In this document: in pieces, positions 59,739 through 60,611 of the stretch | Layout: each line of letters opens with the position of its first letter | Position numbering within the stretch: the first letter of the stretch is position 1 | Origin: Candidatus Tayloriibacteriota bacterium | GTDB taxonomy: Bacteria > Patescibacteriota > Minisyncoccia > Phycocordibacterales > PALSA-1337 | Length of the DNA stretch: 64,000 nucleotides | NCBI GenBank assembly: GCA_003151615.1 | Contig: PLXZ01000004.1 | Coordinates: forward strand, 239,441-303,440 | Direction: 5' to 3' | The notes under the pieces: generated by a model | What the model was told of the DNA's origin: nothing | The model's database searches: none | The model's input: the letters and a program-made list of their open reading frames with translations, nothing else | Made by a program: the position numbers and the translations under genes

Positions 59739-60611
59739 TTACATTCCGCACACCTCCCCAATTTCGCCCATGACTGCGGTTATGCCGGCTTCGTCGATGC
59801 CGTTTTCCTGAAGAATTTTCGGCGTGATTTCCTTGCACAGAATGACGCCGCGTTCGAGCAGGTTTTTTTTGTGGACATTTGAAAGCGTCGCGAGGCATGT
59901 GAAAGGATGCAGTTTCGATTCGGTAATGATGTCGTGAAGATTTCCTTGCGCAGGATAATTCCAGCCCACCATTTTCAGGCCGACGCATGAGCCGTATTTG
60001 ATCGCTTGCTCGGTGAATTTCGTATTGGTGATGAGCCAGCCTTCGGACAATGCCCGGCGTTTTCCTCCATAATCAAAAATTGCTCCGGCGTTTAAAATGT
60101 CGTCGATGCGCGCTTTCACGTAAAGGGCGACCTTCAAATCCGATTTCAGTCCGAATTCGTTGTGAAATTTCGCTTCGACCATGACCAATTTTTCATTATT
60201 CCACGCGACGACGTCCGTTTCGTGTTCGACGCAGGCGCCCTTGACCATTTGGTCGGTTAGCGTTTCGTATTTCCAGACTTTGAAAATATCCGCGACAAAT
60301 TTTTCGAAGGGAAAACCGTTTGGGCCGAGTTCCGCGAGCGCGCGACGCAATGAATACCGCGACGCCGTCGGCATCGATTCCCTGCGGAGAACTTCAAAGG
60401 CGTGCCGATAGATTTCGGCGCTCGACATGCCATTGACCAGTTCCTGCGAGACATGCTCCACGACGCGTTTTGCGATAGCAACCGAACTGCCGGAATTTTC
60501 AAGAGATTCGGTAAGTTTTGCCAAGTCAAAAGGCTCCAACGTTCCGTCGGCTTTCTTGATGTAGATCGGTTCTGCGGAAGGTGTACTTGAAGATGTTGCT
60601 GGAGTCGGCAT
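59739..60611 (-). CDS. ATP-cone domain fused to PD-(D/E)xK (Mrr-like restriction-endonuclease-fold) domain
   Basis: N-terminal ATP-cone-like ~90 aa (IYIKKADGTLEPFD...); C-terminal ...ETDVVAWNNEKLVMVEAKF (D-x-E-x-K). Confidence 0.5.
   Translation of the reverse strand: MPTPATSSSTPSAEPIYIKKADGTLEPFDLAKLTESLENSGSSVAIAKRVVEHVSQELVNGMSSAEIYRHAFEVLRRESMPTASRYSLRRALAELGPNGFPFEKFVADIFKVWKYETLTDQMVKGACVEHETDVVAWNNEKLVMVEAKFHNEFGLKSDLKVALYVKARIDDILNAGAIFDYGGKRRALSEGWLITNTKFTEQAIKYGSCVGLKMVGWNYPAQGNLHDIITESKLHPFTCLATLSNVHKKNLLERGVILCKEITPKILQENGIDEAGITAVMGEIGEVCGM

What the first reader, a model, noticed from the sequence alone, without database searches (positions are those of the whole stretch)
59739..60611. 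ATP-cone domain fused to a PD-(D/E)xK nuclease fold
The N-terminal ~90 aa read like an ATP-cone, the allosteric nucleotide sensor of NrdR and ribonucleotide reductases. The C-terminal half carries a D...E-x-K nuclease-fold signature (ETDVVAWNNEKLVMVEAKF) typical of Mrr/restriction-endonuclease catalytic domains. A nucleotide-pool-sensing nuclease could be a defence or stress effector. It sits between mnmA and a family-4 UDG with no methyltransferase partner.
Basis: partly seen in the sequence, partly recalled or inferred. Interest (0 to 1): 0.5.

Follow-up and report, generated by a model that had tools for sequence, protein, structure and literature searches.

The report
ATP-cone-gated Mrr/AF1548-type nuclease, core gene
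This gene encodes a real but uncharacterised fusion of an ATP/dATP-sensing "ATP-cone" to a restriction-enzyme-like nuclease; its conserved neighbours suggest that it ties nucleic-acid breakdown or repair to the cell's nucleotide or energy state, rather than acting in phage defence.

Summary

E103, D133, E146, K148 and R168 are invariant in 151 family representatives. The ATP-cone residues K20, G23 and K32 are 94-98% conserved.

The family has thousands of members in Patescibacteria and Bacteroidota. Public databases already label them "ATP cone domain-containing protein" or "restriction endonuclease". I found no paper that characterises them.

Context argues against defence. In Paceibacteria the gene sits in a fixed housekeeping block (YceG-MnmA-X-UDG/…-AlaRS). 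There were no viral relatives, no significant defence-model hit and no atypical GC.

In Bacteroidota-type relatives the gene lies in a recurrent cluster: Usp, X, a beta-CASP RNase, and sometimes an AMP phosphorylase. In Paceibacteria the downstream slot holds UDG, 5'-deoxynucleotidase and other repair or nucleotide-pool genes.

Best reading: an adenine-nucleotide-gated nuclease in nucleic-acid turnover or salvage, or in repair. It is a new variant of known kinds, of moderate interest.

The parts
59739..60611 (-). Whole ORF 'X', 290 aa plus TAA stop. It is a three-domain protein: ATP-cone, Mrr/AF1548-type nuclease and AF1548-like C-terminal domain.
   Evidence: ORF list. Codon check. 100% identical public protein P0001 on a 562,931-bp contig.
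60339..60566 (-). ATP-cone domain (residues 16-91). The motif K20-x-x-G23...E26-x-F28...K32 and T/S64...Y68 aligns with E. coli NrdA K9, G12, E15, K21, T55 and H59. The canonical Arg (NrdA R10) is Ala21.
60303..60329 (-). Highly conserved linker L95-G-P-x-G-F-P-F-E103. It joins the last ATP-cone helix to the first catalytic helix. F102 and E103 are invariant.
   Evidence: Alignments A1 and A3 and the representative alignment. Secondary structure of the model.
59946..60314 (-). PD-(D/E)xK nuclease core of the Mrr_cat/AF1548 type (residues 100-222). Catalytic set: E103 (60303-60305), D133 (60213-60215), E146 (60174-60176) and K148 (60168-60170). Also invariant R168 (60108-60110) and the T195-N-T-K-F-T motif.
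59742..59939 (-). AF1548-like C-terminal helical domain (residues 225-290), with the conserved L-H-P-F-T-C-L motif. It is a probable non-sequence-specific nucleic-acid-binding tail.
60633..60641 (-). TGATATAAT, an extended -10-like motif in the 45-nt spacer between the mnmA stop and the X start. It is a possible own promoter (consensus match only).
   Evidence: Read directly from the sequence. No terminator-like site lies between mnmA, X and udg.
60657..61841 (-). mnmA (tRNA 2-thiouridine synthase), the conserved upstream neighbour. This is context, not shown to be functionally linked.
   Evidence: Pfam and NCBIfam equivalog. Directly upstream in 80 of 85 Paceibacteria loci.
59110..59706 (-). 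Family-4 uracil-DNA glycosylase, 32 nt downstream on the same strand. It is a frequent downstream neighbour.
   Evidence: TIGR00758 200 bits against a cutoff of 125. UDG is present within the locus in 45 of 85 loci and is the immediate downstream gene in 23 of 79.

Best explanation
X is a soluble, metal-dependent PD-(D/E)xK phosphodiesterase of the Mrr_cat/AF1548 lineage. Its catalytic set is E103, D133, E146-x-K148. A C-terminal helical tail probably binds nucleic acid without sequence specificity. Activity is controlled by an N-terminal ATP-cone that reads the adenine-nucleotide pool (ATP against dATP, or ATP level).

By analogy with RNR and NrdR, nucleotide binding probably switches the oligomeric or conformational state. 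The signal would pass through the invariant L-G-P-x-G-F-P-F-E linker that carries the first catalytic glutamate.

Biologically it is a chromosomal housekeeping or stress enzyme, not a mobile defence gene. It most likely makes the regulated endonucleolytic cuts that start nucleic-acid turnover or salvage, or that process damaged DNA. In Bacteroidota-type relatives this would feed a beta-CASP 5'-3' nuclease and an AMP (NMP) phosphorylase under stress (Usp). In Paceibacteria it sits beside UDG, 5'-deoxynucleotidase and NTP-pool-sanitising genes.

Shown: domain architecture, conservation of catalytic and cone residues, distribution and gene neighbourhoods. Inferred: nucleotide binding, the direction of regulation, the substrate (DNA or RNA) and the physiological role.
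For: Architecture:
- ATP-cone above the Pfam threshold.
- 1Y88 E 5e-25.
- Model pLDDT 85.7.
- Mrr_cat, ATP-cone and AF1548-like_C score above their gathering thresholds in individually scanned relatives, and are matched at E <= 0.01 in 75, 69 and 44 of 78 diverse relatives.

An active enzyme:
- F102, E103, G125, D133, E146, K148, R168 and D171 are invariant across 78-151 representatives at 50% identity or less.

A functional cone:
- K20, G23, F/Y28, K32, T/S64 and K/R89 are 94-99% conserved.
- K20, G23, E26, K32, S64 and Y68 align with NrdA K9, G12, E15, K21, T55 and H59.

Core gene, not mobile:
- At least 570 species-level genomes carry it.
- Synteny YceG-MnmA-X-...-AlaRS holds in 80 of 85 loci, and also at 45% identity (L177).
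- GC z-score is 0.3.
- No viral relatives.

Nucleotide and nucleic-acid theme:
- Immediate downstream genes in 79 Paceibacteria loci: UDG 23, YfbR-like HD 5'-deoxynucleotidase 9, PDDEXK_1 7, plus NTPase_I-T, MazG-like, MGMT and Exo_endo_phos singles.
- In 80 Bacteroidota-type loci: Usp-X-bCASP 26, Usp-X-bCASP-AMPpase 8, X-bCASP 8, X-bCASP-AMPpase 3, bCASP-X 2.
- Among loci with enough flank on both sides, 31 of 46 have an adjacent beta-CASP gene, and both gene orders occur.
- The beta-CASP partner is TTHA0252/CPSF73-type (E 1e-68).
- The phosphorylase is closest to T. kodakarensis AMP phosphorylase 4GA5 (E 4e-96 against 1e-41 for PyNP).

Background: the ATP-cone is gained and lost dynamically among RNR catalytic subunits and also occurs on the radical-generating subunit, where dATP drives tetramerisation (PMC5794259).
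Against: - No biochemical data exist for any member, including AF1548.
- The canonical ATP-cone Arg (NrdA R10) is Ala, Ser or Thr in this family, so the ligand could differ from ATP/dATP.
- Much of the Paceibacteria synteny may be inherited gene order rather than functional coupling. M3 peptidase (14 of 79) and AlaRS are also neighbours.
- The beta-CASP, AMPpase and Usp partners are absent from the window and from all Paceibacteria loci. The association therefore comes from relatives only about 35-40% identical to the window protein.
- 29 of 80 Bacteroidota-type loci show X alone, although many of these are short contigs.
- The substrate (DNA or RNA) is undetermined.
Confidence: 0.45

Rival explanations
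1. A DNA-repair or recombination nuclease. X would be a structure- or lesion-specific endonuclease, with a nuclease plus helical DNA-binding tail layout reminiscent of XPF/Mus81/Hef or Hjc. It would act downstream of UDG and other repair enzymes, with the ATP-cone tying incision to dNTP availability for resynthesis.
For: - Family-4 UDG is the commonest immediate downstream gene (23 of 79) and is present in 45 of 85 loci.
- PDDEXK_1 (7), MGMT-type DNA_binding_1 and Exo_endo_phos also occupy that slot.
- Weak Hjc Pfam hits in 6 of 78 relatives, and JGI's name 'Holliday junction resolvase-like predicted endonuclease'.
Against: - UDG adjacency is absent in about half of the Paceibacteria loci and in all Bacteroidota-type loci. 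There the partners are an RNase-type beta-CASP, Usp and AMP phosphorylase.
- No helicase, ligase or polymerase partner was seen.
- No precedent for an ATP-cone on a repair nuclease turned up in the full-text searches I ran.
Confidence: 0.25
2. A defence or abortive-infection effector. X would be a Type IV (Mrr-like) restriction enzyme, or a nucleotide-pool-triggered suicide nuclease that fires when phage infection perturbs ATP or dATP.
For: - Mrr_cat membership.
- A sensor-plus-PD-(D/E)xK layout resembles Can2, Card1, Cap4 and NucC.
- Rare in-frame fusions to a PemK/MazF toxin domain (P0027, P0042).
- Weak PADLOC similarity to CARF_PDDEXK and ZorD nuclease domains.
Against: - Fixed position in a housekeeping block across a whole bacterial class, with about 60% identity retained.
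- No viral homologues.
- No methyltransferase or known defence neighbours in any locus inspected.
- PADLOC hits are insignificant (E 0.014).
- Native GC content.
- No N-terminal modified-DNA reader domain of the kind found in Mrr or MspJI.
Confidence: 0.12
3. A dedicated RNA-maturation nuclease (tRNA or rRNA processing). X would work with tRNA-modification and aminoacylation genes in Paceibacteria and with a beta-CASP RNase in Bacteroidota.
For: - MnmA is directly upstream in 80 of 85 loci, and AlaRS and LeuRS are in the same block.
- The beta-CASP partner is CPSF73/TTHA0252 RNase-type.
Against: - Adjacency to MnmA is confined to one lineage and disappears in Bacteroidota.
- Characterised Mrr_cat members restrict DNA (PMC3424549).
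- The AMP phosphorylase and Usp partners point to bulk degradation rather than precise maturation.
Confidence: 0.12
4. An NrdR-like transcription factor. The nuclease fold would serve only as a DNA-binding module, and the ATP-cone would control promoter binding.
For: - ATP-cone plus DNA-binding module is the NrdR logic.
- NrdR ATP-cones are among the best structural matches.
Against: - All four catalytic residues and R168 are 100% invariant over 151 divergent representatives. That is not expected for an inactivated fold.
- No nrd genes were seen among the 32 larger window ORFs scanned, or in any inspected locus.
Confidence: 0.04

Closest known systems
AF1548 of Archaeoglobus fulgidus (PDB 1Y88), a structural-genomics protein of unknown function in the Mrr_cat/COG1787 group
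   Different: AF1548 (199-residue chain) has no ATP-cone. It is archaeal, and its function has never been tested.
E. coli Mrr and MspJI-type Type IV restriction endonucleases (Pfam Mrr_cat)
   Different: Those enzymes carry N-terminal modified-DNA reader domains (winged helix or SRA-like). They are patchily distributed and laterally acquired defence genes. X instead carries an ATP-cone, has an AF1548-like tail, and is a syntenic core gene.
ATP-cone-regulated proteins: ribonucleotide reductases (NrdA, NrdD, NrdB) and the repressor NrdR
   Different: The output domain is a nuclease rather than a reductase or a zinc-ribbon DNA binder. The canonical K-R pair is K-A/S. No link to nrd genes was seen.
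Ligand-gated PD-(D/E)xK effector nucleases: Can2/Card1 (CARF), Cap4 (SAVED), NucC
   Different: Those sensors bind cyclic oligonucleotides made by defence systems, and the genes sit in CRISPR or CBASS loci. X has an ATP-cone that would read primary metabolites, and it has housekeeping or stress neighbours.
Nucleotide-degradation (pentose bisphosphate/AMP phosphorylase) route of archaea. From my own knowledge, not checked here, it has also been proposed for CPR bacteria.
   Same: Bacteroidota-type relatives of X are clustered with an AMP-phosphorylase homologue (4GA5, E 4e-96) and a beta-CASP exonuclease. This is consistent with nucleic acid going to NMP and then to base plus ribose-1,5-bisphosphate (pathway background: PMC9700705).
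   Different: No nuclease has been assigned to the entry of that pathway. R15P isomerase and RuBisCO were not looked for here. The cluster is absent from the window's own lineage.

Membership tests
ATP-cone (Pfam PF03477) | Profile match above the curated gathering score | tested here: met
   34.4 bits against 25.8, E 3.4e-8, residues 16-91 covering profile positions 1-84 of 88. 69 of 78 diverse relatives also match.
ATP-cone (Pfam PF03477) | Four-helix bundle capped by a beta-hairpin, superposable on the RNR and NrdR cones | tested here: met
ATP-cone (Pfam PF03477) | Conserved (d)ATP-contacting residues (NrdA K9, R10, E15, K21, T55, H59) | tested here: inconclusive
   hhalign pairs K20/K9, E26/E15, K32/K21, S64/T55 and Y68/H59, but A21 replaces R10. 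The NrdA sequence and the residue roles were recalled from memory. Conservation: K20 98%, K32 94%, T/S64 98%.
ATP-cone (Pfam PF03477) | Actual binding of ATP or dATP, with an allosteric effect | not testable with these tools
   Needs ITC or filter binding, SEC or mass photometry, and activity assays with and without nucleotides.
Mrr_cat (Pfam PF04471) / PD-(D/E)xK superfamily | Profile match above the gathering score | tested here: inconclusive
   This sequence alone scores 16.4 bits against 21, E 0.01. All four relatives scanned individually (P0071, P0027, P0007, P0107) score 26.4-29.5 bits, above the threshold. 75 of 78 diverse relatives match at E <= 0.01, best E 1.5e-9. AF1548 (1Y88) is placed in the Mrr_cat cluster by Steczkiewicz et al. 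2012 (PMC3424549).
Mrr_cat (Pfam PF04471) / PD-(D/E)xK superfamily | Catalytic E (helix 1) ... D ... (D/E)xK on the core beta-strands | tested here: met
   E103, D133, E146 and K148 are invariant in 151 representatives. They lie on H102-112, E129-137 and E142-148 of the model. They are equivalent to AF1548 D38, E51 and K53.
Mrr_cat (Pfam PF04471) / PD-(D/E)xK superfamily | Restriction-endonuclease-like alpha-beta-beta-beta-alpha-beta fold | tested here: met
Type IV restriction / anti-phage defence system | A modified-DNA reader domain, a location in variable defence islands, and a patchy, laterally transferred distribution | tested here: not met
   The N-terminal domain is an ATP-cone. Synteny is fixed in 80 of 85 loci. 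There were no viral relatives. PADLOC E 0.014 only. GC is typical.
AF1548-like family (Mrr_cat + PF22357 AF1548-like_C) | Nuclease core followed by the AF1548 C-terminal helical domain | tested here: met
   The phmmer alignment to 1Y88 runs from residue 105 to 279. PF22357 scores above its gathering threshold in P0071 and P0107 and is matched at E <= 0.01 in 44 of 78 relatives. PF22357 was not detected in the window protein itself at E <= 1.
NrdR-type regulator | Zinc ribbon plus ATP-cone, with control of nrd operons | tested here: not met
   There is no zinc ribbon, and the ATP-cone is N-terminal to a catalytically intact nuclease. No nrd genes were seen in the loci inspected.

The most novel reading that the evidence does not exclude
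X would be the first example of an ATP-cone controlling a nuclease. In this reading it is an adenylate/dATP-gated endonuclease that acts as the committed, regulated entry step of a so far unrecognised nucleic-acid catabolic or salvage module. That module would be Usp - X - beta-CASP exonuclease - AMP phosphorylase in Bacteroidota, and X with UDG, 5'-deoxynucleotidase and NTP-sanitising genes in Paceibacteria. It would explain how streamlined CPR bacteria, which from my own knowledge (not checked here) generally lack de novo nucleotide synthesis, meter the breakdown of nucleic acids against their nucleotide and energy pools.
Probability: 0.3. Interest if true: 0.7.

Novelty: new variant of a known kind. 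Interest (0 to 1): 0.55.

Why it matters
The ATP-cone is known as the master switch of ribonucleotide reductases and of NrdR. An ATP-cone wired to a nuclease would extend that switch to nucleic-acid degradation.

The family is large. More than 5,900 non-redundant homologues were found with the window protein as query, and more than 7,100 with a Bacteroidota member. It is present in at least 570 species-level genomes. It holds a fixed syntenic position in the Paceibacteria genomes sampled. It is also common in environmental Bacteroidota. None of the full-text searches I ran turned up a study of it.

If the salvage/turnover reading is right, it gives a concrete, testable handle on how ultra-small symbiotic bacteria and marine Bacteroidota regulate recycling of RNA or DNA into nucleotides and carbon under starvation. 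It would also assign a function to the long-orphaned structural-genomics protein AF1548.

If instead it is a repair nuclease, it would link lesion processing to dNTP supply.

Either way, the gene should not be annotated as a 'restriction endonuclease'.

Tried and rejected
- **NCBIfam:** no model matches X or its Bacteroidota homologue.
- **PADLOC:** only insignificant nuclease-domain similarity.
- **Literature:** full-text searches for ATP-cone with restriction endonuclease, REase, endonuclease, Patescibacteria or 'ATP cone domain-containing protein' found no description of the fusion. AF1548/1Y88 papers only predict a nuclease.
- **Profile and single-sequence searches of the ATP-cone region against PDB:** swamped by designed helical-repeat proteins, with NrdR only at E 0.05. 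They were not useful for residue mapping, so hhalign to NrdA was used instead.
- **Viral contigs:** no relatives.
- **Promoter and terminator scan:** counts are at chance level and show no terminator between mnmA, X and udg.
- **AFDB50 fold search:** unavailable.
- **beta-CASP, AMP phosphorylase and Usp partners:** looked for in the window and in the Paceibacteria loci, none found.
- **tRNA and Rfam scans of the window:** only one tRNA-Glu, far from the locus.
- **Fe-S or zinc site from the cysteines:** considered but not supported. Only C127 and C209 are conserved (about 95%); the others are replaced by hydrophobic residues.
- **NrdR-like regulator:** considered and rejected because the catalytic residues are invariant.
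Full report
**1. The observation**

Window 59739-60611 (- strand) is an uninterrupted ATG-to-TAA ORF of 290 aa. An identical protein is already public (P0001), on a 562,931-bp metagenomic contig.

The window as a whole is ordinary housekeeping DNA of a small-genome bacterium. The scanned ORFs include aminoacyl-tRNA synthetases, PBPs, MurG, FtsW, DnaB, DnaK/DnaJ and enolase. The ribosomal protein genes S13, S11 and S4 were called on the same public contig.

Residues 16-91 match Pfam ATP-cone above the curated threshold (34.4 against 25.8 bits). Pfam Mrr_cat is only sub-threshold for this sequence (16.4 against 21 bits). 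Residues 105-279, however, match the solved structure 1Y88 (AF1548 of Archaeoglobus fulgidus) at E 5e-25. All four relatives scanned individually score above Mrr_cat's gathering threshold.

The neighbours are MnmA (NCBIfam equivalog) and a family-4 UDG (TIGR00758, 200 against 125 bits).

**2. Anatomy**

An AlphaFold2 model built on 24 homologues has mean pLDDT 85.7.

- Other nuclease-domain neighbours are NucS, Can2, Card1, MspJI, AspBHI, FokI and LlaBIII.

In 151 representatives that are at most 50% identical to one another:

- F102, E103, G125, D133, E146, K148 and R168 are 100% invariant, and D171 is 99% (100% in the 78-sequence set).
- E131 and N196 are 99% conserved; H130 and T195 are 95%.

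E103-D133-E146-x-K148 is the full PD-(D/E)xK catalytic set. It corresponds to the D38/E51/K53 predicted for AF1548 (PMC1874628, PMC1821046). F102-E103 and T195-N-T-K-F-T-x-x-A are, as far as I recall, signature motifs of Mrr_cat; I did not inspect the profile itself.

In the cone:

- K20 (98%), G23 (97%), F/Y28 (99%), K32 (94%), T/S64 (98%) and K/R89 (99%) are conserved.
- An hhalign of the cone profile with the E. coli NrdA N-terminus pairs K20/K9, E26/E15, K32/K21, S64/T55 and Y68/H59.
- The canonical Arg (R10) is Ala, Ser or Thr here.

The most conserved run of the whole protein, Y86-S-L-R-R-A-L-x-E-L-G-P-x-G-F-P-F-E103, joins the last cone helix to the first catalytic helix. I read this as a plausible allosteric path; that is inference.

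**3. Distribution**

- The window protein finds 5,965 non-redundant homologues at E <= 1e-3.
- An exhaustive search of cluster representatives at 50% identity gives 1,099 hits: 422 at E <= 1e-30. Nearly all of the top 150 span about 265-315 aa and align from the cone through the C-terminal part.
- In one-genome-per-species GTDB contigs, at least 570 genomes encode a relative. The best 80 are nearly all labelled as Patescibacteria: Taylorbacteria, Zambryskibacteria, Nomurabacteria, Paceibacteria.
- A second large clade is in Bacteroidota (Flavobacteriia, 'Bacteroidetes bacterium', Segetibacter sp.; more than 7,100 hits at E <= 1e-10).
- Sources name these proteins 'hypothetical', 'restriction endonuclease', 'ATP cone domain-containing protein' or 'Holliday junction resolvase-like predicted endonuclease'.

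The architecture is therefore already catalogued. Ten full-text searches found no paper that describes or tests it.

**4. Context in the window's own lineage**

Across 85 Paceibacteria loci:

- MnmA is directly upstream on the same strand in 80.
- YceG is further upstream in 67.
- AlaRS is downstream in 71.
- UDG is within the locus in 45.

The wider block LeuRS - sigma70 - DUF8128 - YceG - MnmA - X - ... - M3 peptidase - AlaRS is kept down to about 45% identity.

The gene's GC and GC3 are typical of the window (z 0.3 and 0.5). There are no relatives in 2.9 million viral contigs. No methyltransferase or known defence gene is nearby. PADLOC gives only E 0.014. X is therefore a vertically inherited core gene, which argues against Type IV restriction or a mobile defence effector.

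The slot immediately downstream of X is variable but thematically coherent. In 79 loci it holds:

| Immediate downstream gene | Loci |
|---|---|
| UDG | 23 |
| M3 peptidase | 14 |
| HD / YfbR-like 5'-deoxynucleotidase | 9 |
| PDDEXK_1 nuclease | 7 |
| AlaRS | 3 |
| NTPase_I-T, MazG-like, MGMT-type DNA_binding_1, Exo_endo_phos, OMP decarboxylase, phosphoribosyltransferase | 1 each |

. Apart from the peptidase and AlaRS, these are DNA-repair or (deoxy)nucleotide-pool genes.

In the window, X lies 45 nt after mnmA and 32 nt before udg. No terminator-like site lies between them. A TGATATAAT extended -10-like motif sits in the upstream spacer. That is a consensus match only.

**5. Context in the Bacteroidota-type clade**

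This clade is about 35-40% identical to the window protein. In 80 metagenome loci, a ~450-aa beta-CASP metallo-beta-lactamase nuclease lies next to X on the same strand.

- Among the 46 loci with at least 1.6 kb on both sides, 31 have it adjacent: 29 downstream and 2 upstream. Two more have it within 4 kb.
- The upstream order is also seen in independent contigs. A pair kept in both orders suggests functional coupling.

The partner is of the TTHA0252/CPSF-73 RNase type (2DKF E 1e-68; Cas14 E 2e-71; below the aCPSF1 and Cas14 equivalog cutoffs).

The genes flanking the pair are most often a tandem universal stress protein upstream and a 500-aa phosphorylase downstream. That phosphorylase is far closer to PDB 4GA5/4GA4 (E 4e-96) than to pyrimidine-nucleoside phosphorylases (E 1e-41). 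The depositors call 4GA5 'putative thymidine phosphorylase'. From my own knowledge it is the T. kodakarensis AMP phosphorylase, which is consistent with the 440-aa truncated form 4GA4.

Cluster counts in the 80 loci:

| Arrangement | Loci |
|---|---|
| Usp-X-bCASP | 26 |
| Usp-X-bCASP-AMPpase | 8 |
| X-bCASP | 8 |
| X-bCASP-AMPpase | 3 |
| Usp-X | 5 |
| bCASP-X | 2 |
| X-AMPpase | 1 |
| X-bCASP-Usp | 1 |
| X alone (many on short contigs) | 29 |

HSP20 (5 loci) and P-type cation ATPases also recur. None of these partners occurs in the window or in the Paceibacteria loci.

**6. Mechanism proposed**

Shown:

- A catalytically intact Mrr/AF1548-type nuclease with a conserved ATP-cone and a conserved helical C-terminal tail.
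- Core-gene status.
- Neighbourhoods rich in nucleic-acid and nucleotide-handling and stress genes.

Inferred:

- The cone binds adenine nucleotides. As in RNR and NrdR, it changes the oligomeric or conformational state (background: PMC5794259).
- This switches the nuclease according to the ATP/dATP pool or the energy pool.
- The cuts feed a 5'-3' beta-CASP exonuclease and NMP phosphorolysis in Bacteroidota (pathway background: PMC9700705).
- In Paceibacteria they feed deoxynucleotide salvage, sanitation or repair.

I put 0.45 on this adenine-nucleotide-gated turnover/salvage reading. The substrate (DNA or RNA) and the sign of regulation remain open.

The main rival is a DNA-repair or recombination nuclease coupled to UDG (0.25). 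Next come a defence or abortive-infection effector (0.12) and a dedicated RNA-maturation nuclease (0.12). An NrdR-like regulator (0.04) is contradicted by the invariance of the catalytic residues.

**7. Comparison with known families, and novelty**

- X is a member of the ATP-cone family (threshold and fold met; ligand binding untested).
- X is a member of the Mrr_cat/AF1548 branch of PD-(D/E)xK nucleases. Fold and catalytic motifs are met. The profile threshold is met by relatives but not by this sequence alone.
- X is not a Type IV restriction enzyme in any tested contextual sense, and it is not an NrdR.
- It works like ligand-gated PD-(D/E)xK effectors (Can2, Card1, Cap4, NucC), but its sensor would read primary metabolites.

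The combination is catalogued by domain databases but uncharacterised. I therefore rate it a new variant of a known kind, with interest 0.55. It is not a new sequence or a new fold. A specialist in RNR/NrdR allostery or in CPR physiology would find an ATP-cone-controlled nuclease notable, and the conserved Usp - X - beta-CASP - AMP phosphorylase cluster makes it directly testable.

Noticed in passing
L010 581-1912 (P0042, 444 aa); P0027 (447 aa): A PemK/MazF-like toxin domain (Pfam E 7e-12 in P0027) is fused in frame, with no stop codon in L010, to the N-terminus of the ATP-cone nuclease. This occurs in two independent Taylorbacteria-type sequences. Free-standing PemK-like genes occur elsewhere in L007 and L035.
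   Followed up: partly
L001 1-4730 (same contig as the window, beyond its end); also L004 and L005: The leucyl-tRNA synthetase of this syntenic block is very long (at least 1,722 aa). It carries NUDIX and HAD_2 Pfam hits inside the synthetase, which is an unusual insertion of nucleotide-hydrolase-type domains.
   Followed up: no
window 60231-60233 (C127) and 59985-59987 (C209): Two cysteines are about 95% conserved over 151 family representatives and are also present in AF1548. The protein's other cysteines are replaced by hydrophobic residues. A possible disulfide, redox or metal role remains unexplained.
   Followed up: partly
window 60633-60641 (- strand): TGATATAAT, an extended -10-like motif, lies about 22 nt upstream of the X start codon in the 45-nt mnmA-X spacer. 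The promoter scanner did not list it because there is no -35 match.
   Followed up: no
L090 3436-6011; L176 3285-5987; three further loci in L094-L173: In several non-Paceibacteria relatives, X directly follows a P-type cation-transporting ATPase. In L090 there are also two Usp genes and a Na/Ca exchanger. This is a second recurrent neighbourhood besides the beta-CASP cluster.
   Followed up: partly
L116 4174-9069 and similar loci (L125, L133, L134, L139, L154, L166, L170): A four-gene, same-strand cluster: tandem Usp, ATP-cone nuclease, TTHA0252-type beta-CASP nuclease, and a 500-aa AMP-phosphorylase-like enzyme (best PDB match 4GA5, E 4e-96). It occurs in marine and environmental Bacteroidota-type contigs.
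   Followed up: yes
window 61897-62328 (+): A 143-aa ORF on the opposite strand between yceG and mnmA has no Pfam or NCBIfam hit. By tblastn it was found only in the window's own contig, although small opposite-strand ORFs occupy the same slot in L004 and L005.
   Followed up: partly
window 52614-53921 and 53962-55239 (- strand): Two adjacent ORFs of 435 and 425 aa lie between the ribosomal-protein cluster and alaS. Neither has an NCBIfam hit. The first has only a weak Baseplate_J Pfam hit on the public contig. Both are conserved in position in relatives (L002, L004).
   Followed up: no
window 57275-59086 (- strand): This 603-aa protein was called an M3 peptidase by synteny. In this genome it scores only weakly (TIGR02289 E 3e-8; no Pfam M3 hit at E <= 1), whereas the orthologous slot in relatives gives clear Peptidase_M3 hits. 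It is a divergent member.
   Followed up: partly
window 16182-17288 (+): An RmuC-family protein (Pfam E 1.6e-50) is encoded elsewhere in the window.
   Followed up: no
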